Program-made: the position numbers and the translations under genes
The notes under the pieces: generated by a model
Seen by the model: only the letters and a program-made list of their open reading frames with translations
The model's database searches: none
Told to the model about the DNA's origin: nothing
Shown here: one piece after another, positions 1 to 37,080 of the stretch
How positions within the stretch are numbered: position 1 is the first letter of the stretch
How the letters are laid out: each line of letters opens with the position of its first letter
NCBI GenBank assembly: GCA_963825135.1
Contig: CAWGRW010000009.1
Location: forward strand, 192,001-256,000
Source: an uncultured bacterium
GTDB lineage: Bacteria > Desulfobacterota_D > UBA1144 > Nemesobacterales > UBA2774
Length of the DNA: 64,000 bases
Direction of reading: 5' to 3'

Positions 1-2
1 CG

Positions 3-21763: not shown

Positions 21764-22914
21764 TTTGTTGTGTTTTTCAATTCGTTTAGATACTCGCCCA
21801 GTCTCCCGATCCCCTCTTCGATGTCGGATACCGACGCGGCGTAGGAAAACCTGAGATACCCTTCCCCGCCCTGCCCGAAATCGATACCGGGGGTGACCGC
21901 GACGTGCGCTTTCTCCAGAATATCGAACGCGAGGGCGTGGGAGTCCGGGCTTATCCAGGACGCGTTCACGAAGACGTAAAATGCCCCGAGAGGCTCCGTA
22001 CCAAGGGCGAACCCGAGCTCCCTCAAGCCCTCGATCATCGCCCTTCTTCTCCTGTCGAACTCGCCGGCCATGCCGAGCGCCGCCGCCTTCGCCAGTCTTA
22101 TCGCGGCAATGCCCGCCTTCTGCACGAAGGGGTTAGGCGATATGAAGAGGTTCTGCTGGAGCTTCTGCACGGGTCTCACGAATTCTTCGGGCGCTATCAT
22201 ATAGCCTAATCTCCATCCGGGCATCGAGTATAGCTTCGAGAACCCGTTCACCGCTATGGCGTTCTCCGTGAACTCCAGTATCGTCCTCGCCTCTCCCCCG
22301 TAGACGAGTCCGTGGTATATCTCGTCCGAGATAACGAATACGCCTGACCCCGCGATTGCCGCCATCACGTCCGGGCTCAGCAGGGTTCCCGTGGGATTCC
22401 CCGGAGAGTTAATCAGCACGGCCTTCGTCCGGGGCGTGATCGCCTTTTTGAGCCTGCCGGCGTCTATCTGATAACCCTCTTCCTCGTAAATGCGCACGGT
22501 CCTGGGCACGCCCCCCGCGATCTTTATGAGCTGGGGATAGCAAGCGTAATGCGGGTCCGTGATTATAATTTCGTCTCCGGGGTCCAGCAGCGCCAGCATC
22601 GAAAGGAATAACGCGGGGGAGCTGCCCATGGTCACTATCACGTTCCCGGGCGATATTTTTACCCCGTACGTATTTTCGTAGTCCTCCGCTATCGCTTCCC
22701 TGAGTTCGGATATTCCGAGGCTGTGCGTGTACCTCGTATCCCCTTCCCCGATCGCGCTTACGGCCGCGTCGCATATCAGGGCGGGGGTCGAGAAATCGGG
22801 CATTCCGACCTCGAAGTGTATGACACTCCCTCCGGCGGCTTCAATTTCCTTCGCCCTCTCCAGCACTTCCATCACGTAAAATGGGGAGATATCTTCGGAT
22901 AACCTAGACGGCAT
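21760..22914 (-). CDS. Class I/II PLP-dependent (aspartate-type) aminotransferase
   Basis: NSPGNPTG, SDEIYH, GFSKLYSMPGWRLGY, YLRFSYA. Confidence 0.93.
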   Translation of the reverse strand: MPSRLSEDISPFYVMEVLERAKEIEAAGGSVIHFEVGMPDFSTPALICDAAVSAIGEGDTRYTHSLGISELREAIAEDYENTYGVKISPGNVIVTMGSSPALFLSMLALLDPGDEIIITDPHYACYPQLIKIAGGVPRTVRIYEEEGYQIDAGRLKKAITPRTKAVLINSPGNPTGTLLSPDVMAAIAGSGVFVISDEIYHGLVYGGEARTILEFTENAIAVNGFSKLYSMPGWRLGYMIAPEEFVRPVQKLQQNLFISPNPFVQKAGIAAIRLAKAAALGMAGEFDRRRRAMIEGLRELGFALGTEPLGAFYVFVNASWISPDSHALAFDILEKAHVAVTPGIDFGQGGEGYLRFSYAASVSDIEEGIGRLGEYLNELKNTTK

Positions 22915-23086
22915 GTGAGTTTATTCTATTTGCAAAGGGAGGAGTTGTCTAGACGCACACACGTAGTGTGGCTCTACGATTCTTCCGAAACTCCTCAGCT
23001 CAAACCGCCAATCATGGCGTTTTCGTACGTCAGCGGCGACACGCCGCCCCGTTCACCCCGAGCGCACACGCAGTGTGCTGTCGAAG

Positions 23087-23160
23087 AACAATTGCGAGCA
23101 AGTGAGCAATTGGACGCCCTGGCTCACAATGTACCAAAGCTAGTTAACTTGGCTGCCGCA
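23087..23160 (+). mobile_element. About 90-bp REP-inserted element, copy F (3' end truncated or diverged)
   Basis: AACAATTGC-GAGCAAGTGA-GCAATTG-GACG (perfect 7-bp stem); interior TAGTTAACTTGGCTG resembles copy A; abuts a ..GTCGAAG repeat. Confidence 0.6.
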
Positions 23161-23333
23161 GGATCATATCTTTTTGTCATTGCGAGCGGAGCGCAGCAAT
23201 CTCATCTTTTTCTTTCCTGTCATTCCCGAATGTCTTTATCGGGAATCCAGCCTTTTATTATTTTGATTCAAAATATGGATTCCCGCTCCCCTGGAAGTGA
23301 CAAAAATATTAATGTACCCCCTCACCCTACCTA

Positions 23334-23422
23334 ATTTGGCTCAGGCATCGACGAGCCTCATCTAAGCACCATGTCTAGCTTCGTCGTAAGAGCGACCAAT
23401 TCCTCGCCAACTCGGAATTGTT
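23334..23422 (-). mobile_element. About 90-bp REP-inserted element, copy C (89 bp)
   Basis: Minus strand AACAATTCC-GAGTTGGCGA-GGAATTG-GTCG...GAGCCAAAT; splits a CCCTCACCCT..TCCC..GGGGAGAGGG repeat that is intact at 18118-18156. Confidence 0.7.
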
Positions 23423-23509
23423 TCCCGCGCTGGGGAGAGGGAACTAAGAAGAAAAGAGAGATCGCCACGGCTGCATACGCAGCCTCGCGATGACAGAAAA
23501 AAAGAGTCA

Positions 23510-25211
23510 TCATTCCTCCGCCGCGGGCTCCAGCGTGGGCTGCGGCGTGGGCTGGGGATTGCCGGCGCCGGCGCAGAGCGTGACGACGTAATTTATATCG
23601 TCGCCCTGACAGGTAAAGAGCGCGTTCGCGAGCCCTATCACCTGGTTGCCGTCGTCGAAAGACCAGGCGTAAGCCCCCGCCTGACTCCCTCCCGTATTAT
23701 CGCCGCAAGCGGCGTGCACGTTCTCTATGTACTCAGTGGTATTTTTTGTTCCGCCGTCGTAGGTCGGCCACGCGGACGTCCTTCCCATGGTCGAGTCGCA
23801 CTGCCCGTACGGGTCGCACATGGTCGCCGGGAACTGGCAGCAGGGCGGCGTCGAATTATTCGTCGGCGGTATGTTCAAGTTCGTGCCGCACGTGGTAGAC
23901 GAGGTCATCGCGCAGCTGTTGGCATTATCACCGAAGCTGATCATGCACACGCCCCAGGCGTCGTTATTCGTCCAGGGGGTTTCGTCGTAGCCGCCGACGC
24001 AGCCGAGCCTGTTCATCTCGTCCGTAGTCAGGGAATCGAGCGGCGGAAGCCCTATCGATGACATATTGAACGGGGAGAGGCAGGTGCCGATATCCCCAGT
24101 CGAGGTTTGAACGAAGCCGCCTATGTTGCCCGGTGCCGACGGGCTGAAAACGTAGGTGTCCCACGGGCACGCGGGCAGCTCCGTACACCCGGACCCGGCG
24201 CTCCCGCAGCCGCTCTGACAGGGCGCGGTCTCGATCAGCACGTTGAAGCCGGCGACGAACGATACGTCGTAGTTATCGGCGCCCGTGCAGTTCGCCGGAA
24301 TCCCGCCGTCGAACGTAAACTCGGCCAGGGAAGCGGGCTTAGGCCCGTTTATCCCCCCGCAGTTCTCGACGCCCGTGGTGCCCCCGCAGTTTCCGGTCTC
24401 GCAGGTGAGGTCGCCGCTGTCGGAAGTACAGCCCGTCCGGGCTACGATGACCCCGGAATCCCAGCAAACGGGTATAGTCAGCTGCCTTACGCCGCCAAGC
24501 CCTGCCGGATCGTTGTCACTGGGCGGTATCTCCCAGGTGGCGCCGCCGTTGGTACCCCAGGGCGGAGGCCCTACCCAGGCGGCATTGTTCGTAATCGTGG
24601 GCGGACTCGTCGGCTGAGGGCCCGCCTGACCGCCCTCAGGGCCGCAGTTGCCTATCGAGGGCGAGCTGCCTGTACCGGCCTCGCAGAGGAGCGAGGTGAA
24701 GTCGATGCTCTCCGCACCTATCCATACGGACTGCGAGCATTGGTTCACAATGCTTATAGTGTGTGTCCCGGACGGTCCGGGCGAGGGGCACGGCAGAGGC
24801 GTCGGAGTTGGAGTGGGCGAAGGAGCAGGTGTTGGTGTGGGCGTGGGTACCGGAGTGGGTAGGCACAGGCGTCGGTTCGGACGTGGGTTCCGGGGTAGGC
24901 ACGGGAGTAGGCGCGGGCGTTGCGATCGCGCATGCCTCCGAGAAATCCGTATTACACTCTGAAGACGTCTCTATCGAGTCTACAGAGCCGCATTGGGCGG
25001 GAGAAGTCAGCGGGCAGCAGGCGGCCAGGCCGCCTTCAGCGCAAACCTCGCAGGCCGAATCCCCGCCCGTGAGGTCGCATGTCCGCAATTCAGTGTCGTC
25101 GTCATCACCGGAGCCGTCTCCCGGCGTTTCGCATCCGCCGATGTTTCCGAGGCCGATTAGAATGAATAGTGCGCATACGGCAAGAAATCGAATCCAGTTG
25201 TATCTTTTCAT
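23510..25211 (-). CDS. Lipoprotein with Cys-rich N domain, Pro/Thr linker and thaumatin-like (PR-5) domain; frameshift near 24857
   Basis: Signal ending IGGC; ISIVNQCSQSVWIG, SGVIVARTGC, CETGNCGG, PASLAEFTF, DNYDVSFVAGFNV, AYAWSFDD, FTC..YVVTLC match thaumatin family motifs. Confidence 0.85.
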
Positions 25212-25470
25212 CTCATCTCCTTTACTCCAAGCGCTGGAATTTCACAAACGCTAATATTTGAACTTTATTATTTCGTAAACATACGGCCGGAAACCGCCCG
25301 AAACAATATATTAAATATAAAAGACCGGGCGACGGGGCCCGGGAAGTACACACGCGGGCGGCATGGGGATGAGTAAATCAGAAGAATTTATTAAATGCGC
25401 ATTTCGTAGCATTACCAGTTAAACTATGCGATAGTTAAATTAAGAAAAAAATATACAGGAGACAAATAAC

Positions 25471-25908
25471 ATGAAATTGACCAGCCCCGACTTCGAGGAA
25501 GGAGGCATGATGCCGAGGGAGATGACCTACGACGGCGGGGACGTATCTCCGGAGCTCAATATAACGGAAGTGCCCGAGGGGACTAAGTCGCTCGCGCTCA
25601 TCATGGACGACCTCGACACCCCGAGGGGGACGTTTGTCCACTGGCTCGTATGGAACATACCCTCCGCGACCGGCAGGATAGAGCGCGGAAAGGAGCCTGT
25701 GGGCACTTTTGGCGTAATCGGCTTCGGAGGCAAGGGCTACAGAGGGCCCTGCCCCCCGTCAGGAACGCACAGATATTATTTCAAGTTCTACGCGCTCGAC
25801 GAAGAGCTCGGGCTGAAGGAAGGCTCCGTGAAGGAGGCGTTCGAAGAGGCGATGGAGGGCCATATAATCGACAAGGCCGAGCTTATGGGGAGATACAAGA
25901 GGAGCTGA
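25471..25908 (+). CDS. YbhB/YbcL family (PEBP/Raf kinase inhibitor-like) protein
   Basis: DVSPEL, SLALIMDD, FVHWLVWNIP, YRGPCPPSGTHRYYF. Confidence 0.92.
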   Translation: MKLTSPDFEEGGMMPREMTYDGGDVSPELNITEVPEGTKSLALIMDDLDTPRGTFVHWLVWNIPSATGRIERGKEPVGTFGVIGFGGKGYRGPCPPSGTHRYYFKFYALDEELGLKEGSVKEAFEEAMEGHIIDKAELMGRYKRS

Positions 25909-26013
25909 GCGCACAATGTGTGCTCATATACGATCCTGACAATGCTGCATCCACCTGTCGCTGCGAGCCGAAGCGCAGTAATCTCGTCTTGTTTATTCCT
26001 GTCATTCCCGAGC

Positions 26014-26103
26014 CACGGTTCTGAACGCGTGCAAGAGCCGGACGACCCCGGCTGATTGCAAATACGCTTCAATATCCCGGCACCTTAGCAACACAAGCCA
26101 AAA
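26014..26103 (+). mobile_element. About 90-bp REP-inserted element, copy E (90 bp)
   Basis: CACGGTTCT-GAACGCGTGCA-AGAGCCG-GACG...TGATTGCAAATA...AAGCCAAAA, in the loop of a GTCATTCCCGA..TCGGGAATC repeat (intact form at 23218-23250). Confidence 0.7.
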
Positions 26104-26151
26104 AGAATCGGGAATCTAGTGTTTTCCTTTTTCTTAAATCCACCCTACCCT

Positions 26152-26242
26152 ATTTGGACTTTAGCAACGCTCAGCCAGTAGTTAATCTAACTCGGTTTCG
26201 TAGTTGTCCCGGCGTCCGAATGCTCACACGTTCGCATCCGTT
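26152..26242 (-). mobile_element. About 90-bp REP-inserted element, copy A (91 bp)
   Basis: Minus strand AACGGATGC-GAACGTGTGA-GCATTCG-GACG...AAGTCCAAAT; splits AAATCCACCCTACCCT|CTTTACAAAGGAGGG. Confidence 0.7.
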
Positions 26243-26366
26243 CTTTACAAAGGAGGGAATTAAAGGCAGAATCCGTTCGCCCCGAGCCTATTGCAGGATG
26301 ATGCTTAGTCGATCATTTTAATCATTGGATTAGCCGAATATAAACAGCCGGCAGGTTAAATCTCTC

Positions 26367-26939
26367 TCACATCACTGCGTATCTCTTTTCCTCTTTCCCG
26401 AGAGCCTTCTCTATCTTGCGCTTCAGCAGCTCGCGCTTGAGACGCGTGAGCCTGTCTATGAAGAGCACCCCGTCCAGGTGGTCTATTTCGTGCTGGAACA
26501 CGCGGGCGAGCAGGTCCTCGGCCTCGATCTCGAGGAGCTTCCCATCCCTGTTGTAGCCTTCGAGCACGATTTTGTATTTCCGCTTCACGTCGCTCACGAA
26601 CCCGGGGATGCTCAGGCACCCCTCCTCTCCCACGATCTCGCCTTCAGACGAAATAATCTCGGGGTTAATGAGCTCTATCAGCCCGGGCCCGTCGTATTCA
26701 GGCCCGCCGTCCCCCTCTTCGTCATCGTCCCCTTCCGTCTTTCTCGGAGATATATCGACCACGATTATCCTGCTTTCGACCCCCACCTGGGGCGCGGCCA
26801 GCCCCACGCCCGGGGCCTTGTACATGGTCTCGGCCATATCGTCGAGAAGCTCCAGCACATCGCCGTCGATCTCTTCGACCGGGGCGCATTTCTTTCTCAA
26901 ATACGGGTCGGGGTATATAAGTATTTTACGGAGTGCCAT
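26367..26939 (-). CDS. def: Peptide deformylase
   Basis: GVGLAAPQVG, EGCLSIPG, QHEIDHLDG. Confidence 0.97.
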   Translation of the reverse strand: MALRKILIYPDPYLRKKCAPVEEIDGDVLELLDDMAETMYKAPGVGLAAPQVGVESRIIVVDISPRKTEGDDDEEGDGGPEYDGPGLIELINPEIISSEGEIVGEEGCLSIPGFVSDVKRKYKIVLEGYNRDGKLLEIEAEDLLARVFQHEIDHLDGVLFIDRLTRLKRELLKRKIEKALGKEEKRYAVM

Positions 26940-27069
26940 AAAAAAAAGGCTATCGGATCAGACCTGATTGTCAATGTGGCGGTTATGCGCGGAAGCAGGG
27001 TAACGGAATATGAATACCGTCCCTATGTACGCCATGAATTCCGCCGCCCGGGGCCGGGCGGGCCTGATG

Positions 27070-27354
27070 CTACTCGTTTCCGCCGTTGAGCTTGGTGATT
27101 AACTCTCTGCTCGGCCTGAAATGAGGGAGCTTCTTCGAGGACACCGTGACCTTGGAGCCGGTCCTCGGGTTCCTCCCCTCGTAGGACCCGTAGCTCTTGG
27201 TGAAAAAGCTGCCGAACCCCCTGATTTCTATCCTGCCGCCGCCCTCAAGGACCTGGGTCATGTGCTCGATCACCGTATCGAGTATCTGCTCGGATTGCGA
27301 GGGCTGAAGATTGAATTTGTCCGCCAATTCCTTTTCTATATCTGAGCGCTTCAT
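27070..27354 (-). CDS. ihfB: Integration host factor beta / HU family protein
   Basis: RIEIRGFGSF, GRNPRTG, PHFRPSREL. Confidence 0.85.
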   Translation of the reverse strand: MKRSDIEKELADKFNLQPSQSEQILDTVIEHMTQVLEGGGRIEIRGFGSFFTKSYGSYEGRNPRTGSKVTVSSKKLPHFRPSRELITKLNGGNE

Positions 27355-27524
27355 AGTTAAACTCCCAACCTTTTTAGTCCGCCGTAACGCCCGCCCCTTA
27401 CCCACTCTTCCAATTTAGATAATTCTTAAGTGTTTGTCAAGTGTTAGATTGCCCGGGAATTAAATTAGTTTCGGTCCCCGGTTTTCCGGCCGCAGCCCTC
27501 CTTTTCCGCTTCCCGGCCAATGAA

Positions 27525-28943
27525 TCAAGCCTTTATCTTCTTTTTCGCCCCGCCCGAGGCCCTCGCTTCCCTGCCTCCGGATTTTTCCCCGACGCTCCCC
27601 CGCGCCTCCGGGTGGTCGCTCAGGAATTTGTTCAGGTGCATTTCGGAGTATGACCCCTTCGGATAGTACTTGTCGTAGAACTCCACGTCTATGTTCATCG
27701 CCTGGAAAACGAGCCTCATGTACATGGGATCGACGAACGCCGGGAACCTCCCGTAGGTGTCGTATATATAATTCGCTACGTCCTTAACGATCTGAATCGT
27801 GTTCTTCGTGGGCTTGGGCGCCCTCATTAAATGTTTATCGGGCTCCGTGTAGGGAAACGGCTTCTCGGGCTTCCAGGCGTCTTCCTTATGGTGATGGAAC
27901 GCGTCTATGGCCTCGTCCATATTCTTGTAGTAAGGCGGGCAGTAGGCTTCGAATATACCGTCCCTTCCGACCGGAACCGTGGACGGGGGGTCTATCACTC
28001 CCTTCTTCGGCTGTACGAACCTGAACCCGAGCCCCTTGAACAATTGAGGAGCCCCTCCCATGGCGAACCTCGGTATGAAGCCGCTGAACGTCCAGCCGGC
28101 AAGACCGAGCGCCTGGAGCGCCAGGCTCATGTTCTGGCATATGAAGGCCTGCTCCACGTTTAGCCCCGTGAGTATCCTCACTTCGAGGTCGAAGAGCGAC
28201 ATCTTGACGCCGTCCTTGAGCCTCCCCTTGTCTATCCACTTCTGCACTCCCGCGGGCTTGCCCGTGAGGTCGTCTATGATCGTGAAACCGTATGTGGAGC
28301 TGCAGTAGAGGTGGAGGAGGTTCAGGTACTCCTCGGTGACGTCCGTCACCGGGATAAAGACCGAAGTCCCCGGTTTGTTCGTATTCCACTGGTTGAATTC
28401 GAACAGGCCCGGCATGCGGTCGGGGAGCTCCGCCCTCCCGTCCTCCAGCTTCACGAGGCTCTCGCGGTACAGCTCCAAAATCCTTTCCATTCTCTCTTCG
28501 CGGCCCATGCGGAAAAACATGTCGAGCTCGTGGTTCTTCGGGAGCATGTGCTTTACGTTCACATGGTAGAGCCCCTTGTCGTTCGTGAAAAATAGCTCCG
28601 TCCCGTGGTTGTTGCACGCCGAGGGCCATGTGCGCCCCGTCCACTGGCAGAGGAGGTCGATACCCGTTTCAGGAGGGAGGTCGGCCAGGCAGAGGCCCGT
28701 GAGACCGGTGCCGGACCACACTAAAAGCGCCTCTTCCATCTCCTCGAGGGGAACCGGGTCGTAACGGGATTCGAAACCGAGCGACGTGTCCTCGAGCTTC
28801 ATGCCGAGGCCGAAACGGCGCGAGCGCCTGTTGAATATCGAGTCGAAAAGCGGGTAGTTAAGCGCCTGCTCGTACCTTTCGCCGAGAGCGAACTTTCCGT
28901 TCCCCTTCCCGTTGTTGCCTCTGCTGTTTCCGCCTTTAGCCAT
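27525..28943 (-). CDS. Hypothetical protein, possible nitroreductase-superfamily fold
   Basis: NRRSRRF, GRTWPSACN and QNMSLALQALGLAGW resemble nitroreductase FMN-binding segments; AAGGAGG RBS. Confidence 0.6.
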   Translation of the reverse strand: MAKGGNSRGNNGKGNGKFALGERYEQALNYPLFDSIFNRRSRRFGLGMKLEDTSLGFESRYDPVPLEEMEEALLVWSGTGLTGLCLADLPPETGIDLLCQWTGRTWPSACNNHGTELFFTNDKGLYHVNVKHMLPKNHELDMFFRMGREERMERILELYRESLVKLEDGRAELPDRMPGLFEFNQWNTNKPGTSVFIPVTDVTEEYLNLLHLYCSSTYGFTIIDDLTGKPAGVQKWIDKGRLKDGVKMSLFDLEVRILTGLNVEQAFICQNMSLALQALGLAGWTFSGFIPRFAMGGAPQLFKGLGFRFVQPKKGVIDPPSTVPVGRDGIFEAYCPPYYKNMDEAIDAFHHHKEDAWKPEKPFPYTEPDKHLMRAPKPTKNTIQIVKDVANYIYDTYGRFPAFVDPMYMRLVFQAMNIDVEFYDKYYPKGSYSEMHLNKFLSDHPEARGSVGEKSGGREARASGGAKKKIKA

Positions 28944-29175
28944 AGTAGTCCTCCTTATTAATTAAACAAACATGAATTGATAATGGGACGATTGCCCCCC
29001 CTACCTAGAGAATTTAAAATAACTCGACGGAAAATGCAAGGAATTCGGAGGATACGCGATACTCAGGGGCGCAAAACGATTTCAAGCCCTATCTTGAGTA
29101 ACGAAATGTAGAATTTATATATTGTAGCGGGAATACGACGTTAACACCGGCCCCGGCGAGGAAAAAAGAGGCCCG

Positions 29176-30036
29176 CTATATGGACTGCCCGTGCAGGAGC
29201 TCTCTTTGAGACGGCTTTGTCGCGCCCCCGTCGGGCTCGACCGTGACCAGGAACCTCTCTACGTCGCCGTATTTCTTAAGCGATTCCACCTTCACGACGC
29301 TGTTGCCCTCGCTGTCCACGTCGAAAACGCCTACGCTCTTCGGGACCCCGTGCACGATTACCCACCACTGGTAGGTTTTGCCGGGAGGCGCATCGGGTAG
29401 GTGGAGGCAATAAAGAAGCGCGTCGTTCTCCTCCTTGTCCCAGAGCACCCTTCCTGCCGCCCGGACCTCCGGTCTCGACTTCTTCATCCGTATGAGGACT
29501 ATCTCGGGGTCCTTCATGAATTCGGTTATGTCCTCGATGCTTGCGAGCTTGGCCTTTAGGCCCCCCACCATCCCCTCCCTGTCTGTGAGCAGGTTCTTCA
29601 GGGATTTTATCTCTTCCTCCTGCCCAGAGACCTTGGCGTTAAGGATCCCGACCATCGCTTTCTCCCGGCGGAGATTCCCTCTGAGCGAGAGGTCGTTCAC
29701 GAACAGGAAAACAATGACGCCCGCCGCGAGCGCCCCGCCTAGCCCGAAAAAGTAGGGCCTCAGCCTTTCCATGAAGCCGCCCGTCTGCACGGGTCTCCGC
29801 CTGAGCGCGCTTTTCCTCGCGTACTCGAGTATCTCGCTCCTGACGCGGGGACCGGGCGAAGCGGCGCCACTCGAATAAGAGAGCAGGGACGCCGCGTTCT
29901 CGTATTCATTAAGGAGCTCCTTCGCCTGCGGCGGGCCCTCGCTTATAAGGCGCTCCGCCTCGCGCAGCTCCTCTCCCTCGAGCACGCCTAACGCGTAGAG
30001 TGGGATCAATTCTTCGAGTCTCCGGTCATCCGCCAT
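29176..30036 (-). CDS. Anti-sigma factor, RskA-like
   Basis: LYALGVL N terminus, single TM, coiled coil, C-terminal PPGKTYQWW...SVGVF...VTVEPDGG. Confidence 0.88.
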   Translation of the reverse strand: MADDRRLEELIPLYALGVLEGEELREAERLISEGPPQAKELLNEYENAASLLSYSSGAASPGPRVRSEILEYARKSALRRRPVQTGGFMERLRPYFFGLGGALAAGVIVFLFVNDLSLRGNLRREKAMVGILNAKVSGQEEEIKSLKNLLTDREGMVGGLKAKLASIEDITEFMKDPEIVLIRMKKSRPEVRAAGRVLWDKEENDALLYCLHLPDAPPGKTYQWWVIVHGVPKSVGVFDVDSEGNSVVKVESLKKYGDVERFLVTVEPDGGATKPSQRELLHGQSI

Positions 30037-30336
30037 AAAATAATGGGTCTCACTATCGAGCTTGCGGGATTTATCGTCAATCTAATATAAATTAAGACGC
30101 CGCACAAATAAATATACGGAGATAAACGATATTCGGTTTAATCGACCGTATGTATATTATAACCGCTTAAAACAGGAGGGAAGAAGGTCGTCGCCCCCAC
30201 CCCGGCGCCGACCGGGCGGAGACAAATACGACGCGGCTATATATTTAAACGGGATGTATATTTATTATGTTATATTCTTGTAACCGAATTACACGAATCG
30301 GAATTTGTCTTAGTCAAACAAGGAAGATAGAGACGG

Positions 30337-30921
30337 ATGACAATGCCTTCGGCTGAGACCAGACGTATACCTGAAATCGAGCGTGAGCTGAGAGAGCTCA
30401 TAAGCAAGATCTCGCGCGGATGCGAGTCGGCGCTCGGGAAGCTCTACGACAGGATGATATCCCAGGTCTACGGGCTCGCGCTCAAGATTCTCCGCAGCAA
30501 CTCCGAAGCGGACGAGGTAACTATAGACGTATTCAAGCAGATATGGGATAAGGCCTCGGGCTATACGCCCGACCGCGGAAGCCCGTCGGCGTGGCTGATT
30601 ACGCTTACGAGGAGCCGCGCGATAGACAAGCTCCGGTCGGACACGAAGAGGAGGAGCTTACAGGATCCGCTCCACGACGACATCCCCTCGAATATAGACC
30701 CCCCTGATGAGACCACAGAGACGAGGCAGAAGCGCGCGCTCATCGATAAGGCCCTCTCGGAGCTCCCCCCCAAGCAGAGGGAATCCATAGAGCTCGCCTA
30801 CTTTCACGGGCTCACTCAGACGGAGATATCCGCCCGTATGAACGAGCCGCTCGGCACCGTTAAGAGCTGGATGCGGGCCGGGATGACGAGGCTCCGCGAG
30901 ATCATAGGCGCCGGGTACTAA
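30337..30921 (+). CDS. ECF RNA polymerase sigma factor (SigK-like)
   Basis: LYDR, AWLITLTRSRAIDKLR, LAYFHGLTQTEIS, PLGTVKSWMRAG. Confidence 0.93.
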   Translation: MTMPSAETRRIPEIERELRELISKISRGCESALGKLYDRMISQVYGLALKILRSNSEADEVTIDVFKQIWDKASGYTPDRGSPSAWLITLTRSRAIDKLRSDTKRRSLQDPLHDDIPSNIDPPDETTETRQKRALIDKALSELPPKQRESIELAYFHGLTQTEISARMNEPLGTVKSWMRAGMTRLREIIGAGY

Positions 30922-30936
30922 TCCGCCGCCCCGGTC

Positions 30937-31276
30937 CTAAAGCGGCAGGCCGAGCTTTCCGCCAAGCGCCGCGTATCCGAGAAAAAGCACCACCATCACC
31001 CCGAGGACGCCGCCATAGACAGCCGGAAATTGCAGCCGTGCCGGAGCATCCGCGGCAGGATGAGAAAGAAGAGAAGCGTGGGCAGCACGAAGCGGCCGAG
31101 AGGTCGGCGATCCGTCCCGCGTCCCTGGTATCGGCATAGAGCCATGCCACTGCGAGGAGAGATGTCAGCGGAAGGGCCGCCAGCATGGCGGCGAAAGCCG
31201 TGTGCCTCTTGCCGAGCTCCGACACGCCCGCGATCACGAGCGCCGTTAATACGGTCTTAACAATGAAATATATCAT
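30937..31276 (-). pseudogene. DUF3147-family membrane protein, frameshifted or small deletion near 31090
   Basis: VIAGVSELGKR, AALPLTSLL, WLY; the C terminus continues in another frame. Confidence 0.65.
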
Positions 31277-31418
31277 CTCCCGCTCCTTCCCAGCCGATAT
31301 AATTGATATTAAACTACTCCCTGTCCGTTATGCCTGGAATAATCGGTACAGCCGGGTTTGGAAACTATATACTTTTCCGGCTCTGTTTGAACGGGCATGA
31401 ACAGTCGGAGGAAAGAAC

Positions 31419-32384
31419 TTGAAAATCACTTCTTATATCATTGGCGACGACCTGCACCTCGAAGAAGAAACCTCAGTCACCTCTTTCTCGGAAAGGATAA
31501 AAGACGGCAGGCCCAGATGGGTCGACATCGTAGGCCCGGCAGACGACGAGCTGAGGAGCGTGCTCACGCCCCTCGTCCACGACGATTCATTGATCGAGAA
31601 TTTTATATTGATGGAGCGGAACCTCCCCGTAGCGCATTCGGAAAAAGAGCTCTACTTCGAATTCCCCCTAATCAGGGACACGGCCTCGTTCGATCTCGAA
31701 AACGTATCCTTCCTCTGCATGCCTCATCTCCTTATCACGATCCACGACGAGGAGATCGAAGTACTGAACAAGCTTTCCCAGGACCTGTGCAAACACCTCC
31801 ATCTGCAGAGGGCCACGATTGCTTCCCTCCTGTTCAACCTGATGGCCGAGCTCGTGGAGAAAAACTACTATCTCTACAGGGACCAGAGGGAGGAGATCAC
31901 GAAGATAAGCAACAAGGTAATAATGGGAGAGGACTCGATCGACGTCAGGACCATTCTTCATCTGAAGAAGAATATCGGGCGCGTGAATATCATGGTCGAG
32001 GACCAGCTCTACTGCATCAACACCATACAGGTATACGAAGGGGTGGCTTTCGATATCGGCAAGCAGCGGAGGAATTTCAACTACCTCGAGGACGAGGTGC
32101 GTAACGGCTTCAGGTTCCTGAGCAGGTACGAGAACAGGCTCGAGGACATACACAAACACTATGAGCTCATGCTCCAGGAGAGGACGAACAACAGGCTCAA
32201 GGTGCTGACCATAGTGGCGGCCGTATTCCTGCCCCTTAACCTCGTGGCCGGCATCTACGGTATGAACTTCGAGAATATACCGACTCTCAAATGGGAATTC
32301 GGGTACCACGCCGCGCTCGGTTTCATGCTGTTAGTGGCGGTCTCGATGGTTTATTACTTCTACCGCCGCGGCTGGTTCAAGTGA
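31419..32384 (+). CDS. corA: CorA-family divalent cation transporter
   Basis: LKVLTI..FLPLNLVAGIYGMNF signature, two C-terminal TMs, RRGWF. Confidence 0.9.
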   Translation: MKITSYIIGDDLHLEEETSVTSFSERIKDGRPRWVDIVGPADDELRSVLTPLVHDDSLIENFILMERNLPVAHSEKELYFEFPLIRDTASFDLENVSFLCMPHLLITIHDEEIEVLNKLSQDLCKHLHLQRATIASLLFNLMAELVEKNYYLYRDQREEITKISNKVIMGEDSIDVRTILHLKKNIGRVNIMVEDQLYCINTIQVYEGVAFDIGKQRRNFNYLEDEVRNGFRFLSRYENRLEDIHKHYELMLQERTNNRLKVLTIVAAVFLPLNLVAGIYGMNFENIPTLKWEFGYHAALGFMLLVAVSMVYYFYRRGWFK

Positions 32385-32548
32385 CCGGCTCTCGCCGGGC
32401 TAGTTCAATTTCTCCCGGGCGGTGACCGCGCGGAAGAGTTAGCCCGGAACCCTCGTCTGAATACTAAAATCCTCCTCCGCCCGATCCTGATGTAAAATAT
32501 AGGTCAGCCAGGATGGAAATTGTCAAAGAGAGCACAAAGGCGGCAGCA

Positions 32549-34795
32549 ATGAATTTCGAGCGAATGTTACTCTCCACGACCGTATTAATCCCCCTCGCGA
32601 TCACCGCGGTCATATCGGCCGCGCTCCTGTTCTTCCCGCTGGCCGGGGCTCTCGGCTTCGAGTACTCGGCCGTCATGGGGTTCGTCCTCTCCTTCATATC
32701 CGTATTCGTATCGGCGGAGCTCATGGGCGGCGAATACAAGTCCCACTCGTCGGGGAAGAGGCTCTCGGACAGGGTATCGTCCATACTCCTCGTCTGCTCC
32801 TTCTTCCTGGTCCTCGTGTACCTGATCGGGCTCCTGGGCTCGCTCCTCAAGGGGGACTGCTACATACGGGAGGGGACGGTATTCTTCCTCCTGATCCCGG
32901 TCGTGAGCGTATTCTTCTCGTCCTCCCTCGGGCTCCTGACCGGGTATATCCTGCGCGGCAGGGGTTTCATCGCCGGGGCCCTGATACTGATCGGGATATT
33001 CGCGTATTCTCTCTGGGAGCTCTACAGCGAGCCCTCGCTCTTCGTCTATAACCCGCTCTACGGATTCTTCCCCGGCCCCATCTACGACGAGGCGATACCG
33101 GTCACGGACACGCTCATCGTCTACAGGCTCATGACCGCGCTCTGGGGGCTGCTCTTCCTCGCGCTCCTTCAGCTCGCCAACGGCCTCGGATACAGGAGGG
33201 TCGGCCTCTGGGATTTCGTGAAGGTCTCGGTCGTCGGTATAGCGCTCATCGTCGCGTACTCCCACGAGCACGAGTCGGGCGTCAGCTACGACAGGGCGTA
33301 CATAACCGGCGAAATCCTCCCCGCGTCCGTGGAAACGGACCACTTCATAATTTACTACGACCCGTCCTCACCCGACGCGAAGCGTATAAACCTCATCGCC
33401 GGGGACCACGAATGGAGGTACAGGGAGTTAAGCGAATTCCTCGATCTCAATCCCGGCCCCGGGTCCATGGAGAAAATCCGCTCCTACGTCTATCCCGATA
33501 CCGATACGCGGAAGAGGGTCGTCGGCGCGGGAGATACCACCATTGCGAACCCGATACACAAGGAGATACACCTCGTTTACGATACGTTTCCCCAGCCCGT
33601 GCTCAAGCACGAGCTCACCCACGTCATGGCGGGGGACTTCGGGACGAAGATACTCCGCATGAGCCCCAAGATCGGGCTCCTCGAAGGACTCGCCGTGGCC
33701 GCCGACTGGAGCGGCGACGGCTACGACCCGCACCAATGGTCAAAAGCGATCATCCACAACGGCCAGGCCCCCGACATCGCGGACATAACGGGTTTCGGGT
33801 TCTGGTACGCGCCCCCGGCCCTGAGCTACACCCTCATGGGCTCTTTCTCGAGGTATCTCATCGACACCTACGGCATAGAGAAATTCAAGACCGTTTACAG
33901 GACGGGCGATTTTTCAGTCTACGGCAAGGGCCTCCCGGAGCTCGTCTCGGACTGGAAAAAGTTTCTCGACGGAGTGGACGCCCCCGCCGAGATAAACGCG
34001 CTCGCGAAAGCCAGGTTCGGCGCGCCCAGCATCTTCACGGCCTCGTGCCCGAGAAGGGTCGCCGCTCTAAAAGCGGAGGGGTTTAAATATTACGGGGACG
34101 ACAATTTCTGGAAGGCGAGAGAGAGATTCAAAGAAGCGCTCCGGTACGACGGCCGGGACCCGGTGCTGCTGAACGGGCTCGCGTATTCGAACTACTACGA
34201 GGGCGACTACGGCGAGGCCGAGAAAATAGCGGAGACGCCGGGCGCGCTCACGGAGGCCGACAGGGCGGTGCTCGGGAACCTCAGGGGGAACGCCCTCTGG
34301 CAGTCGGGCGACACGAAAGCGGCGGCCGGGATTTTCAGCTCCTTACGGCCGGGCCCCCTGCCCGACGACCTCAAGAGGGAGATAGACATAAAGCTCTCGG
34401 CCATAGGGACGGGCGGCACGCCTGAAGGGAGCGTAAGCGAGTTCTTCTCGACGAGGGACAGGACGCTTCAGGCCGCATCCCTCTCGGAATCGATACTGAA
34501 TTCTCCCGAATACTCACCGCCCTACTATCTCATGGGGAGGCTATTCTTCAACACCGGTGATTATCAAAGGGCGATACCCTATCTGTCCATGGCGGACTAT
34601 CTGGGCCTCCCTTCGGCCGAGCTCACGCAAGAGAACCTGCGCATACTCGGCATTTCCCTCTTCGCAGCCGGCAGGTACGACGAATCGGCCGCCGTGTGGA
34701 GCCGCCTCGCCTCCGGGGACGACCCGGAGCTCAGGGAATACGCGTCCGACTTCCTTCGCAGGATCGAGTGGGGCAGGAACAACCTGTTGAAGTAA
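32549..34795 (+). CDS. Multi-pass membrane protein with HExxH metallopeptidase-like domain and C-terminal TPRs
   Basis: Several N-terminal TMs; LKHELTH followed by LLEGLAVA; TPR-like helices. Start may be 32513. Confidence 0.7.
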   Translation: MNFERMLLSTTVLIPLAITAVISAALLFFPLAGALGFEYSAVMGFVLSFISVFVSAELMGGEYKSHSSGKRLSDRVSSILLVCSFFLVLVYLIGLLGSLLKGDCYIREGTVFFLLIPVVSVFFSSSLGLLTGYILRGRGFIAGALILIGIFAYSLWELYSEPSLFVYNPLYGFFPGPIYDEAIPVTDTLIVYRLMTALWGLLFLALLQLANGLGYRRVGLWDFVKVSVVGIALIVAYSHEHESGVSYDRAYITGEILPASVETDHFIIYYDPSSPDAKRINLIAGDHEWRYRELSEFLDLNPGPGSMEKIRSYVYPDTDTRKRVVGAGDTTIANPIHKEIHLVYDTFPQPVLKHELTHVMAGDFGTKILRMSPKIGLLEGLAVAADWSGDGYDPHQWSKAIIHNGQAPDIADITGFGFWYAPPALSYTLMGSFSRYLIDTYGIEKFKTVYRTGDFSVYGKGLPELVSDWKKFLDGVDAPAEINALAKARFGAPSIFTASCPRRVAALKAEGFKYYGDDNFWKARERFKEALRYDGRDPVLLNGLAYSNYYEGDYGEAEKIAETPGALTEADRAVLGNLRGNALWQSGDTKAAAGIFSSLRPGPLPDDLKREIDIKLSAIGTGGTPEGSVSEFFSTRDRTLQAASLSESILNSPEYSPPYYLMGRLFFNTGDYQRAIPYLSMADYLGLPSAELTQENLRILGISLFAAGRYDESAAVWSRLASGDDPELREYASDFLRRIEWGRNNLLK

Positions 34796-34828
34796 TCGTT
34801 TAATCCTATATAATCTTAGCTTCCGAAA

Positions 34829-35314
34829 ATGGACAGATACAGAAAAGCCGCGGTCATCACAGTACTCGTAGTCGTAATCGACCAGTTGTCCAAGTGGCTC
34901 GTGATCAAGTACGTGCCGCTCTACGGCAGGGTGAACCTGCTCCCGTTCCTCGACGTGACCCACATCAGGAACCCCGGGGCCGCGTTCGGCATCTTCCGGG
35001 AAATGCCCGAGTCGCTCAGGCTCCCGTTATTCATAGTCGTGCTCCTGGCCGCCGTCGTGGTCATCATATACTTCCTCTCGAAGACCGGGAAGCAGGACAG
35101 GCTCCTCGTCTTCTCTCTATCCCTCATACTAGGCGGGGCGATAGGAAATTCCATAGACAGGTTCAGGCTCCGCTACGTTACGGACTTCATAGACTTCCAC
35201 TGGTTCGGCAACCCCGCGCTCCACTGGCCGCCGTTTAACCTCTCGGATTCGGCCATTACCATCGGCGTCATACTGATACTTTTCGACACATTCATCCTTA
35301 AACGGGGCAGATAG
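34829..35314 (+). CDS. lspA: Lipoprotein signal peptidase II
   Basis: DQLSK, NPGAAFG, GGAIGNSIDR, VTDFI, WPPFNLSD. Confidence 0.96.
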   Translation: MDRYRKAAVITVLVVVIDQLSKWLVIKYVPLYGRVNLLPFLDVTHIRNPGAAFGIFREMPESLRLPLFIVVLLAAVVVIIYFLSKTGKQDRLLVFSLSLILGGAIGNSIDRFRLRYVTDFIDFHWFGNPALHWPPFNLSDSAITIGVILILFDTFILKRGR

Positions 35315-35316
35315 AC

Positions 35317-35928
35317 ATGTTCACGGGGATAGTAGAGGACACAGGGACTGTCACGGCGATTAAACGCCGCTCCAGGGAATCCTCTTTCACTTTCAGCGTA
35401 GGCAGGATCGACTTAAATGAGGTATCAGCGGGGGAGAGTATATCCGTAAACGGCGTGTGCCTCACCGTTACCTCGCTCGAAGGCGATACGTTCACGGCCG
35501 ACGCGTCGCGCGAGACCCTTTCGAGGACCGGCCTCGGGAAGCTCAGGGTCGGCGGCAGGGTGAACCTCGAGCGCTCTCTTCGGGCCGGGGACAGGATGGG
35601 CGGGCACATCGTGAGCGGGCACGTGGACGGGGTTGGCAAGGTCAAATCGAAAAAGAAGCGGGGAACGTCCGTGGAATTCAGGTTCGCGGCCCCGGACGGG
35701 ATCATGAAATATATCGTCGAGAAAGGCTCGGTCGCCATAGACGGCGTGAGCCTCACCGTAAACGCGGTCGAGGGCGGGGAATTCACCGTGAACATCATCC
35801 CCTACACGCTCTCGGAAACCACGTTCGGAGCGCTCAGGACCGGGAATACGGTCAACATAGAGTGCGATATAATAGGGAAATACGTCGAGAGGTTCACGAC
35901 GGGCGCAAGAGACATAGAGACGGGCTAA
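35317..35928 (+). CDS. ribE: Riboflavin synthase (alpha)
   Basis: MFTGIVE, NGVCLTV, VNLER, GGHIVSGHVD, DGVSLTVN. Confidence 0.96.
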   Translation: MFTGIVEDTGTVTAIKRRSRESSFTFSVGRIDLNEVSAGESISVNGVCLTVTSLEGDTFTADASRETLSRTGLGKLRVGGRVNLERSLRAGDRMGGHIVSGHVDGVGKVKSKKKRGTSVEFRFAAPDGIMKYIVEKGSVAIDGVSLTVNAVEGGEFTVNIIPYTLSETTFGALRTGNTVNIECDIIGKYVERFTTGARDIETG

Positions 35929-35938
35929 AGATCATCAG

Positions 35939-36464
35939 ATGACTCCTCCGCGGAAAAAACCGAAGAACATATTCCTCGTCGGCTTCATGGGAGCGGGCAA
36001 GACCACCATCGGCAGGATACTCGCCCGGACGCTCGGGTACAGGTACTGCGATTCCGACAAGGTGATAGAAACGAAAGCGGGGAAGACGGTCTCCGAAATA
36101 TTCTCGAGCCTAGGGAGAGTCTCGTTTCAGAGAGCTTGAATCGGAGACGCTCAATTCGCTCGCCGGGAAGGAAAAACAGGTGATAGCCACGGGCGGCGGC
36201 GCTGTGATGAGGGAGGAGAACCGGGAGGCGATGAAAAAGGGCGGGGTCACGGTCTATCTTAAAGCCCCCGTGAGCGTTATCTGGGAAAGGATCAGACTCA
36301 GCAAGACGCGTCCCCTGCTGAACGTGGACAATCCGCTCGAGGCCGCGGAAGAGCTCCTTCAAAAGCGCGCCCCTTTCTATGAATCCGCCGATATAACTAT
36401 CGATACGGAGAGCCTCACGCCCGAAGAAGCGGCTTCTGAGGTCATAAAGAAGCTCGGGATTTGA
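35939..36464 (+). CDS. aroK: Shikimate kinase, frameshifted near 36110-36125
   Basis: GFMGAGKTT in one frame; FRELE..VIATGGGAV..TRPLL..RAPFY in the next. Confidence 0.92.
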
Positions 36465-36480
36465 AAGGAAAGCTTTATAC

Positions 36481-37080
36481 TGTCATTTCGAGCAACAGTT
36501 GCAAGCGCGCGCGCAACCGGTCGTTGCTGGTTGATTGCAAATAACCTGAATCGACATGCGTATATAATCCGCGTAAACCAAAACGAGAAATCAATCTTTT
36601 ATCTTTGCTTTTGTTTTCTCCCGACATTACAGAATTTGCGTCAAGAAAATCGGATTGTACGAGTCGTTAAGAACTCTTACGCTAGGGACTCGGTCGGGAG
36701 TCCGAACGATTCAGCGAGCACAGTCGAGCATGTTAGCGACAATTACTGTAGAATTTGCGGATGAACATCGCGTGTTTAGCATCAAGGAAAAGAATTGAAA
36801 GATTTTAGCTTAAACACAAGATTTTTAGCGTAATTCTGTAGTCTTTTCGGAAACCACACTACGATTTTTGCTTCTTTTATCCAGGAAAAGAAGGATAATA
36901 TCACCTTCACCACTATCTTTTCTGTCTTTGCATAAACCACTATCGGTGCACGGAAGTTTTCATAATCCACACTTCGTGTGTTCATCAAGGAAAAGAAATA
37001 AATAACATTAGTTAGGTACCGCCCTCACCTTCACCCACAAAGCGGGGAGAGGGAATGACATACAGTGAGAGATCGTCACG
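36481..37080. repeat. Intergenic repeat mosaic homologous to 2424-2890
   Basis: 28-bp identity TTTTCTCCCGACATTACAGAATTTGCGT (36614-36641 = 2538-2565); AATT(A)CTGTAG right arms near 36741 and 36832; ATC(A/C)AGGAAAAGAA units near 36781, 36879 and 36984. Confidence 0.8.
36494..36583 (+). mobile_element. About 90-bp REP-inserted element, copy D (90 bp)
   Basis: AACAGTTGC-AAGCGCGCGC-GCAACCG-GTCG...TGATTGCAAATA...AAACCAAAA between TGTCATTTCGAGC and CGAGAAATC (intact form at 233-260). Confidence 0.7.

What the first reader, a model, noticed from the sequence alone, without database searches (positions are those of the whole stretch)
23087..36525. Compensatory base changes preserve the terminal hairpin of the 90-bp element
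Seen in sequence: a 7-bp stem starting at element position 3 is kept while its sequence changes. C CAATTCC/GGAATTG (perfect), F CAATTGC/GCAATTG (perfect), A CGGATGC/GCATTCG (one G-T), E CGGTTCT/AGAGCCG (one T-G), D CAGTTGC/GCAACCG (one mismatch); B is more degenerate. The loop is 10-11 nt, mostly GA(A/G)..G(C/T)GA, and G(A/T)CG follows the stem in five of six copies. Inference: covariation at several pairs indicates a structure recognised as ssDNA or RNA, and argues against random sequencing noise. The GA...GA loop could form sheared G-A pairs.
Basis: partly seen in the sequence, partly recalled or inferred. Interest (0 to 1): 0.75.

Follow-up and report, generated by a model that had tools for sequence, protein, structure and literature searches.

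The report
Hairpin-tipped 90-base nesting repeat family
A small hairpin at the head of a roughly 90-base non-coding repeat keeps its pairing while its letters change, and the repeats sit inside one another's hairpin loops, so this looks like an undescribed family of tiny mobile elements in an uncultured bacterial lineage.

Summary
Five of the six reported copies (F, C, E, A, D) are at the stated places with the stated arms; copy B was not found. About 123 full-length copies occur in the genome. Searches that ignore pairing still find 54 perfect 7-bp stems, against 0 in a reversed-genome control.

On 117 distinct copies from this and related genomes, 97.9% of stem cells pair, against 75.1% when shuffled. 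Six of the seven pairs show double changes. An extra pair inside the loop also covaries, which fits stacked G·A pairs.

The hairpin heads an 85-93-nt unit. Units sit inside the loops of other hairpins, with intact and filled copies both present, always in the same orientation. They turn over between strains and species.

The family is confined to a few related genera, probably Dadabacteria. It does not track Y1, Y2, IS110 or reverse-transcriptase genes.

Best reading (0.5): a non-autonomous, REP-like mobile element whose hairpin is the single-strand recognition structure for an unidentified enzyme. RNA versus ssDNA is unresolved. An earlier scan of this genome found the same hairpin in arrays behind tRNA genes.

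The parts
23087..23119 (+). Copy F: AAC, then the hairpin at 23089-23112 (7-bp arms, 10-nt GA..GA loop), then the tail GACGCCC. It follows another palindromic repeat that ends in ...GTCGAAGAA.
   Evidence: R1 match at 53.3 bits; coordinates; sequence.
23314..23446 (-). Copy C: a composite 'family I' element. A C-rich 5' end forms a first hairpin, directly followed by the covarying hairpin (23397-23420), and the element ends in a G-rich 3' end.
   Evidence: R1 match at 45.5 bits; family I alignment; coordinates.
26000..26115 (+). Copy E: a 91-nt unit (26014-26104; hairpin 26016-26040) lying inside the loop of a TGTC-tagged host hairpin. The host arms are within 26000-26015 and 26105-26115.
   Evidence: R1 match at 22.5 bits; the host arms ATTCCCGA/TCGGGAAT are read; an unfilled copy of the same host type lies at 23218-23247.
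26133..26263 (-). Copy A: a composite 'family I' element with the covarying hairpin at 26217-26240.
   Evidence: R1 match at 43.5 bits.
36481..36592 (+). Copy D: a 90-nt unit (36494-36583; hairpin 36496-36519; A-rich 3' end) inside the loop of a TGTC-tagged host hairpin. The host halves are 36481-36495 and 36584-36592.
   Evidence: R1 match at 32.5 bits. The empty form of this host and two filled paralogues are seen on contig C11.
23175..23247 (+). Two short TGTC-tagged hairpins (23175-23201 and 23218-23247). They are of the host type that elsewhere carries a unit in its loop. The first has the same kind of GAGCG..GCGCA loop.
   Evidence: weak R1 match at 23179-23200 (10.4 bits).
25956..25983 (+).
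   Evidence: (repeat D2). R1 does not detect it.

Best explanation
The hairpin is the cis-acting recognition structure at the 5' end of an 85-93-nt non-coding, non-autonomous mobile unit. The unit reads AAC, a 7-bp stem, a loop of the form GA-N-CNNG-N'-GA, the closing stem, a GG(A/T)CGCC tail, about 55 nt of variable sequence, and an A-rich end.

Units insert in one orientation, just after an AA, into the single-stranded loop or loop/3'-arm junction of other palindromic repeats. Targets include hairpins of their own kind. Each unit brings a new target hairpin, so units nest and pile up into mosaic intergenic blocks and into arrays behind tRNA genes.

Shown here:
- the conserved structure;
- the sharp left boundary of the unit;
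- intact and filled host copies;
- same-strand nesting;
- turnover between strains and species;
- restriction to one lineage.

Inferred:
- that the hairpin is read on one strand, most likely as ssDNA, by a structure-specific enzyme acting in trans;
- that the G.A positions form sheared pairs.

The enzyme is not identified.
For: Structure under selection
-, as given under the observation check.

Unit boundary
- Among 119 extended copies, 112 pairwise alignments begin exactly at the AA before the stem.

Insertion
- Two copies of a CGATTGC/GCAATCG hairpin are intact. Three copies, with otherwise collinear flanks, hold an 84-87-nt unit between the loop and the 3' arm (alignment A3).
- An empty TGTC host hairpin lies beside two filled ones on C11. 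The strain-variant stretches C10:130.6 kb and C11 share flanking genes but have different mosaics.
- A strict search finds 8 split same-class hosts, about 5 independent events, with units of 85-93 nt and all in the host's orientation. It finds 0 in the opposite orientation.
- A looser search finds 13 of 119, against a mean of 3.5 (maximum 9) when the upstream halves are swapped between elements.

Turnover
- The orthologous spacer between the aminotransferase and thaumatin-like genes in four congeners measures 185-1290 nt. It holds other repeats or extra genes, but neither F nor C.

Lineage restriction and copy-number swings
- 22 of 41 related genomes have the hairpin. Counts run from 0 to at least 150 per genome (150 candidates were scored per genome).
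- By group: 9 of 9 congeners, 4 of 4 in genus g4, and 1 of 16 genomes in other families.

Not a gene-linked signal
- Flanking-gene orientation is unbiased: 22, 20, 17 and 15 for the four arrangements among 74 copies.
- Behind four tRNA genes, all 13 hairpins have the GA strand antisense to the tRNA. Read-through RNA would therefore carry the non-GA strand.
Against: - No candidate enzyme was found. Y1_Tnp is absent from this genome (94% complete) and present in only 3 of 14 hairpin-rich relatives.
- IS110-type DEDD genes occur in 9 of 41 genomes, Y2_Tnp in 2 of 41 and RVT_1 in 10 of 41. None tracks the hairpin, and all three are absent here. Draft assemblies often lose insertion sequences, so absence is weak evidence.
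- The 3' junctions are imprecise. One or two bases of the host 3' arm are missing or changed, and no clean target duplication can be read.
- No 3' hairpin or terminal inverted repeat of the unit was seen.
- The nesting events are few and partly paralogous.
- There is no replication-strand rule. C10 has 35 copies on + and 6 on -, but C9 0-430 kb, with the same sign of GC skew, has 12 on + and 22 on -.
- No expression or ssDNA data could be obtained.
Confidence: 0.5

Rival explanations
1. The hairpin is an RNA module, for example a protein-binding, processing or stabilising stem-loop with an internal tandem G.A. It is carried by several families of transcribed intergenic repeats. Selection acts on the RNA fold, and the DNA-level spread is secondary.
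For: - Strand-specific features (G.U tolerated; purine mismatches on one strand) fit RNA as well as ssDNA.
- CNNG apical loops closed by a covarying pair are RNA-like.
- Family I elements have two adjacent hairpins and complementary C-rich and G-rich ends.
- According to the abstract of PMC3733652, REPs of other bacteria often act in mRNA.
Against: - There is no orientation preference relative to neighbouring genes.
- All 13 copies behind four tRNA genes are antisense to the tRNA.
- No Rfam family matches.
- Single copies are not unusually stable.
- Beyond the two 5' hairpins, RNAalifold finds no shared structure in the rest of the element.
- No transcript data are available.
Confidence: 0.22
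2. The inverted repeat works in duplex DNA. It would be a binding or crossover site for a dimeric protein such as a site-specific recombinase that also uses tRNA T-arm-like sites. The hairpin never forms.
For: - Arrays lie behind four tRNA genes, and each unit carries a copy of the tRNA 3' end, as integrative elements that target tRNA genes do.
- Two 7-bp arms around a 10-bp spacer resemble a recombinase core site (general knowledge, recalled).
- Housekeeping recombinases would show no presence/absence pattern.
Against: - 41 different arm sequences that keep only their complementarity cannot all be read by one sequence-specific protein.
- G.T is tolerated more often than A.C (33 against 8 cells).
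- The conserved purine mismatches lie on one strand only.
- All nested units share the host's strand.
Confidence: 0.08
3. There is no selection on structure. Perfect palindromes are produced by the copying mechanism, or a few palindromic master copies are simply inherited by subfamilies, and the apparent covariation is phylogenetic.
For: - Many copies are near-identical subfamily members, and part of the count comes from strain-variant contigs.
- The shuffle control ignores relatedness, as the tool's own text warns.
- By distinct stems, G.T against A.C is only 16 to 7.
Against: - 41 distinct arm pairs all remain paired.
- Closely related elements with almost the same downstream sequence differ in the stem. 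One pair changes on both sides (T-A to G-C). A G-C, G.T, A-T series occurs at another pair.
- An unselected inner pair covaries.
- Stems that contain G.T have multiplied (5 of 16 occur in two or more distinct copies), whereas 6 of the 7 A.C stems are single copies.
Confidence: 0.08

Closest known systems
REP / BIME elements of enterobacteria and pseudomonads (GTAG-tagged REPs with RAYT/TnpA-REP)
   Same: Short intergenic palindromes in about 100 copies. The arms covary. There are conserved unpaired flanking bases. The repeats combine with other motifs into mosaic blocks, and the structure is thought to be read on single-stranded DNA.
   Different: There is no GTAG tag. The loop is 10-11 nt with internal G.A positions rather than a short loop. 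No RAYT is present in this genome or in most carriers. The hairpin is the head of a longer, asymmetric 85-93-nt unit.
CGTC-tagged REPs (Di Nocera et al. 2013, PMC3733652; includes Neisseria dRS3 and the mosaic elements built on it)
   Same: On the opposite strand the stem is preceded by ..CG(T/A)CC. That paper's conclusions say this super-family 'apparently lack[s] a dedicated transposase'. Units are clustered in some species. The short TGTC-tagged hairpins next to our units, whose stems start with AT, fit that description better than the unit's own hairpin does.
   Different: Section 'CGTC families' gives stems of 8-9 bp that start with A/T pairs, loops of 4-5 nt, and a CCA-like tail. Here the stem is 7 bp and starts with C-G, the loop is 10-11 nt, and the flank is AAC (GTT on the other strand).
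IS200/IS605 ends and their miniature derivatives (recalled)
   Same: Asymmetric ends. A subterminal hairpin is recognised by shape on one DNA strand. Insertion is next to a very short target, in one orientation, without a clear target duplication.
   Different: Those elements have hairpins at both ends and need a Y1 transposase. Here only a 5' hairpin was found, and Y1 genes do not co-occur with the elements.
tRNA-linked repeats of E. coli (recalled; also named in earlier notes e1-1205222 and e1-1205223)
   Same: Arrays of the same hairpin units follow four tRNA genes, and each unit carries a copy of the tRNA 3' end.
   Different: The window's copies are dispersed and are not next to tRNA genes. 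The sequences are unrelated to the E. coli repeats.
Insertion sequences that target REP loops, such as IS1397 (recalled)
   Same: Insertion into the loop of a palindromic repeat.
   Different: Those are full-size elements that encode a transposase. Here the inserting element is a 90-nt non-coding unit that itself carries the target structure.

Membership tests
Classical REP (RAYT-associated) | Short (20-40 bp) intergenic palindrome in high copy number | tested here: met
   The hairpin is 24-25 nt. There are 123 full-length matches in the genome. 82 are intergenic by crude ORF calls; the other 41 lie in doubtful ORFs that run over repeat blocks.
Classical REP (RAYT-associated) | Conserved GTAG-type tetranucleotide at the foot of the stem | tested here: not met
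   The flanks are AAC on the 5' side and GG(A/T)CGCC on the 3' side.
Classical REP (RAYT-associated) | A Y1 (RAYT) gene in the genome, flanked by the repeats | tested here: not met
   PF01797 gives 0 matches in G000. It is found in 3 of 14 hairpin-rich relatives and in many hairpin-free ones.
CGTC-tagged REP super-family (PMC3733652) | Terminal CGTC (or TGTC/CCTC) tag | tested here: inconclusive
   The opposite strand reads CG(T/A)C one base before the stem. Among 92 perfect copies the tail is GACG in 33 and GTCG in 49.
CGTC-tagged REP super-family (PMC3733652) | Stem of 8-9 bp starting with A/T pairs, loop of 4-5 nt, CCA-like tail | tested here: not met
   The stem is 7 bp and starts with an invariant C-G. 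The loop is 10 nt (56 copies) or 11 nt (19 copies) among 79 distinct sequences. The definition was read.
MITE (derivative of a DDE transposon) | Terminal inverted repeats and a target-site duplication | tested here: not met
   The unit's ends, a 5' AAC-hairpin and an A-rich 3' end, are not inverted repeats, and no clean duplication is seen. Composite family I elements do have complementary C-rich and G-rich ends.
IS200/IS605-derived miniature element | Hairpins near both ends, plus a Y1 transposase in trans | tested here: not met
   Only the 5' hairpin is conserved. Y1 genes do not co-occur.
tRNA-linked repeats | Tandem units directly behind a tRNA gene, each ending in a copy of the tRNA 3' end | tested here: met
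   This holds for arrays outside the window, behind tRNA-Arg(ACG), Glu(TTC), Arg(CCT) and Arg(TCT). It does not hold for the five window copies.
Integron attC site | A long imperfect palindrome with the conserved core and inverse-core boxes, in a co-oriented cassette array next to an integrase gene | tested here: not met
   The pairing is a local 7-bp stem, not pairing between element ends. Copies lie on both strands and several share one spacer. The C10 region has mixed gene orientation, and only an rve fragment was found among the 144 ORFs scanned. An IntI gene was not searched for specifically.
Any Rfam RNA family | A match at or above the gathering score | tested here: not met
   There are 0 matches in the window. 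In 22850-26450 the only match up to E=5 is a chance one (E=2.7).

The most novel reading that the evidence does not exclude
These units are a new class of structure-guided mobile DNA. A roughly 90-nt passenger carries a hairpin with an internal tandem G.A. An as yet unknown, structure-specific enzyme, not a Y1, Y2, IS110-type or reverse-transcriptase protein, pastes it strand-specifically into the single-stranded loops of other hairpins, including tRNA T-arm-like targets. The same mechanism would explain how tRNA-linked repeat arrays and 'transposase-less' tagged REP families arise.
Probability: 0.25. Interest if true: 0.8.

Novelty: new variant of a known kind. Interest (0 to 1): 0.55.

Why it matters
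Small palindromic repeats fill the intergenic space of many bacteria, yet how they spread is known only for those tied to Y1 transposases. Whole super-families have no known enzyme. The origin of tRNA-linked repeats has been open since the 1970s.

This family offers three things:
- a very clear structural signature, with dozens of arm variants that all pair;
- intact and filled target sites in one genome;
- relatives with 0 to more than 100 copies.

That makes the search for the responsible enzyme tractable, by comparative genomics or by pull-down. It also gives a test of whether loop-targeted nesting builds mosaic intergenic blocks. For annotators, it explains many spurious short ORFs and the rapidly changing spacers in this lineage.

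Tried and rejected
- **Expression.** RNA versus ssDNA stays open.
- **Known RNA families.** None matches.
- **Candidate enzymes.** I checked phyletic co-occurrence across the same 41 genomes. Y1_Tnp, DEDD_Tnp_IS110, Y2_Tnp, RVT_1 and small GIY-YIG ORFs do not follow the hairpin counts.
- **Integron reading.** Rejected. Copies lie on both strands within one spacer, gene orientation on C10 is mixed, and no integrase was found among the 144 C10 ORFs scanned.
- **Replication-strand bias.** Not consistent between C10 and C9.
- **Thermodynamic stability of single copies.** Not distinctive.
- **Shared structure across the whole family I element.** Only the two 5' hairpins are shared.
- **Pseudoknot between the loop's 3' half and the tail.** Considered by eye and dropped, because tail and loop variants do not covary.
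- **Literature.** 'Dadabacteria' together with 'repetitive extragenic palindromic' gave 0 papers. Three 10-letter motifs of the neighbouring TGTC hairpin gave 129 papers; the 15 listed looked like primer or unrelated matches. I found no description of this family in those two searches. Subscription journals are not covered.
- **Earlier scan notes.** Look-ups by sequence and by place in this window returned nothing.


Full report
**What is in the window**

The stretch 23087-36525 holds ordinary housekeeping genes: an aminotransferase, a thaumatin-like protein, PEBP, HU, an ECF sigma/anti-sigma pair, CorA, LspA and riboflavin synthase. Three spacers among them are packed with repeats: 22915-23510, 25905-26370 and 36460-37080.

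Five copies of the reported hairpin lie in these spacers:
- F 23089-23112 (+)
- C 23397-23420 (-)
- E 26016-26040 (+)
- A 26217-26240 (-)
- D 36496-36519 (+)

The sixth, 'degenerate' copy B was not recovered by the model scan with filters off. It may be one of the short related hairpins at 25956-25983 or 23175-23201.

**Is it more than chance?**

I laid the whole genome (3.13 Mb, 17 contigs; the window is C9:192001-256000) and scanned it.

- AAC plus a perfect 7-bp stem (at most one G.T) and a 9-12-nt loop gives 206 sites. In 92 of them G(A/T)C(G/A) follows.
- A looser scan finds 81 perfect stems, against 5 in the reversed genome.
- To avoid circularity I anchored only on unpaired positions (AA, GA..GA, G[AT]C[GA]). 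Of 195 sites, 54 have 7 of 7 pairs, 2 have six and 5 have five. The rest peak at 2-3 pairs like background. The reversed genome gives 56 sites, none with seven pairs.

A covariance model built from 55 distinct seeds (A1, R1) finds 133 matches at E<=1 in the genome. I kept the 123 full-length ones at E<0.001 and dropped two partial matches. They comprise 79 distinct stem-loop sequences and 42 distinct stems.

Part of the count is redundant. The small contigs are strain variants of parts of C9 and C10 at 86-99% identity. 97 of the 123 copies lie on C9 and C10.

**Covariation**

I aligned 150 matches (117 distinct) from this genome and from public MAG contigs (A2).

- 97.9% of cells form standard pairs, against 75.1% in shuffles (0 of 500 shuffles reach it) and 10-42% when partners are slid.
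- Six of the seven stem pairs have changes on both sides. There are 226 compensatory cells, against 76 expected.
- RNAalifold predicts the same stem without being told it.
- The first pair is an invariant C-G and the fifth is nearly always T-A.

A2 was fitted to the model's structure, so the structure-blind scan is the cleaner control.

An eighth pair, inside the loop and next to the GA..GA positions, played no part in choosing the seeds. It is still 93.2% paired, with GC, GU, AU, UA and CG. The apical four bases are mostly CNNG.

The motif is therefore: a 7-bp stem, two purine-purine positions, one or two further pairs, and a tiny loop. However, only 32 of 56 distinct 10-nt loops are GA..GA.

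Non-standard stem cells are mostly G.T/T.G: 33 cells in 16 stems, against 8 A.C/C.A cells in 7 stems. Stems with G.T have multiplied, while those with A.C are nearly all single copies. Closely related elements show a G-C, G.T, A-T series at one pair and a T-A to G-C swap at another.

This points to one strand, the GA strand, as the folding one. Counted by independent stems the excess is modest. Single copies are not unusually stable.

**What the hairpin belongs to**

Printing all copies with their flanks shows the same module, AAC-hairpin-GG(A/T)CGCC, in several contexts:
- family I elements of about 130 nt, with a C-rich 5' end that forms a first hairpin abutting the module and a G-rich 3' end (window copies A and C);
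- elements in which the module and about 60 further bases lie between the two arms of a TGTC-tagged hairpin (window copies D and E);
- the inside of a very abundant repeat that begins ..CCCGACATTACAG;
- tandem arrays behind tRNA genes.

Pairwise alignments of 119 extended copies start at the AA before the stem in 112 cases.

**Evidence for insertion**

- Two copies of a hairpin with arms CGATTGC/GCAATCG are intact. Three copies with collinear flanks carry an 84-87-nt segment between the loop and the 3' arm. That segment starts with a complete hairpin of another arm type and ends A-rich. Two bases of the host arm differ at the junction (A3).
- On contig C11 an empty TGTC host hairpin stands next to two filled ones whose insert is a paralogue of window copy D. 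The C10 strain variant of the same locus has a different mosaic between the same flanking genes.
- A strict search finds 8 hairpins of the same class that are split by a unit of 85-93 nt. These are about five independent events, and all have the unit in the host's orientation. None is in the opposite orientation.
- A looser search gives 13 of 119, against a mean of 3.5 (maximum 9) in a control with swapped upstream halves.
- Double nesting occurs, for example at C9:85956.
- The base before the unit is nearly always AA. Insertion points are after ..CAA in mid-loop, or after a loop that ends in AA.

**Turnover**

Between the aminotransferase and thaumatin-like genes, four congeneric genomes have spacers of about 185 to 1290 nt. 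These hold other repeats, an extra gene, or a small GIY-YIG ORF. None holds copy F or C.

**Distribution**

An exact pattern scan of one genome per species found 46 loci.
- 39 have paired stems. They lie in MAGs labelled Candidatus Dadabacteria, Thermodesulfobacteriota, 'Spirochaetia' and 'delta proteobacterium'.
- 7 are unpaired chance hits in high-GC coding DNA of other phyla.

Among 41 relatives the model finds the hairpin in 22:
- all 9 congeners (13 to at least 150 copies, 150 being the number of candidates scored per genome);
- genus g4, 4 of 4;
- g5, g6 and g9;
- 3 of 5 in g2, with 1-7 copies;
- 1 of 16 genomes in other families.

The labels, and earlier notes on this genome, suggest a Dadabacteria lineage.

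**Which enzyme?**

None of the families tested follows the hairpin.
- Y1_Tnp: absent here; found in 15 of 41 genomes, but in only 3 of 14 hairpin-rich ones.
- IS110-type DEDD: 9 of 41, absent here.
- Y2_Tnp: 2 of 41.
- Reverse transcriptase: 10 of 41, absent here.
- Small GIY-YIG ORFs: uncorrelated.
- The repeat-rich half of C10 encodes a patchwork of accessory genes and a single rve fragment.

Draft assemblies lose insertion sequences, so this is 'not found in those searched', not 'absent'.

**RNA or DNA?**

- Orientation relative to neighbouring genes is unbiased: 22 divergent, 20 and 17 tandem, 15 convergent, of 74 copies (crude ORF calls).
- Behind tRNA-Arg(ACG), tRNA-Glu(TTC), tRNA-Arg(CCT) and tRNA-Arg(TCT), all 13 hairpins have the GA strand antisense to the tRNA.
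- Same-strand nesting also suggests a strand-specific DNA process.
- No Rfam family matches.
- I could not obtain expression data.

I therefore favour ssDNA over RNA, but not strongly.

**Comparison with known systems**

The nearest kinds are REPs and the mosaic elements built from them. I read the abstract, conclusions and the section 'CGTC families' of Di Nocera et al. 2013 (PMC3733652).

That super-family has a CGTC/TGTC tag, 8-9-bp stems starting with A/T pairs, 4-5-nt loops and a CCA-like tail. It 'apparently lack[s] a dedicated transposase'. Our hairpin shares a CG(T/A)C next to the stem on the other strand and the missing transposase. It fails on stem, loop and tail. The short TGTC hairpins that serve as hosts fit that description better.

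IS200/IS605 ends, REP-loop-targeting insertion sequences and E. coli tRNA-linked repeats are functional analogies that I recall from general knowledge. They were not tested for membership beyond the rows given.

An earlier follow-up on this genome (e1-1205224, e1-1205222, e1-1205223) had already described the hairpin arrays behind tRNA genes as REP-like or as tRNA-linked repeats. This work adds four things:
- the same hairpin heads dispersed 90-nt units;
- these units nest in hairpin loops;
- they turn over between strains;
- four transposase or reverse-transcriptase families do not explain them.

**Verdict**

It is a new variant of a known kind: a REP-like, non-autonomous mobile repeat. It has an unusually clean structural signature and an unknown mobilising activity.

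Noticed in passing
window 36600-36700 and 36860-36900; about 100-130 BLAST matches genome-wide: A much more abundant repeat that begins ..CCCGACATTACAGAATTTGCG (up to 134 matches in the genome) fills most of the 36460-37080 spacer. In some copies the hairpin unit lies inside its central stem.
   Followed up: partly
window 23040-23086: Another palindromic repeat (..GTTCACCC.GAGC...GTCGAAG.., about 40 copies) ends exactly where copy F begins. In other copies its 3' arm is displaced by a hairpin unit.
   Followed up: partly
G000 C9:662566, C9:665243, C13:20285, C9:13756, C9:2208289: Hairpins overlap the 3' ends of genes whose products end in a hydrophobic anchor plus a basic tail (IPTL-CTERM-like). 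In three of them a nested unit supplies the last codons, and the stop codon lies in its loop.
   Followed up: no
G000 C10:75000-224025: 35 of 41 hairpins on this contig are on the + strand although gene orientation is mixed. The region is a patchwork of single accessory genes separated by long repeat blocks. C9 shows no such bias.
   Followed up: partly
G000 small contigs C1-C8 and C11-C17: These are strain-variant copies (86-99% identity) of parts of C9 and C10. Repeat copy numbers are therefore inflated, and the spacers differ between variants.
   Followed up: yes
window 1-170 (C9:191943-192170) and locus L095 (G001:C65): A small GIY-YIG ORF lies at the window start. In congener G001 such an ORF, flanked by two inverted TGTC/CGTC-tagged hairpins, occupies the spacer that holds F and C here. 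It may be a nuclease gene tied to the tagged-hairpin families.
   Followed up: partly
window 23510-24745 (-): A 411-aa protein with a thaumatin-family domain (E=5e-18), which is unusual for a bacterium.
   Followed up: no
G003:C8:99575-99868 and 100804-100842: In one congener a Y1_Tnp gene lies about 1 kb from a hairpin copy. This is the only such proximity seen.
   Followed up: no
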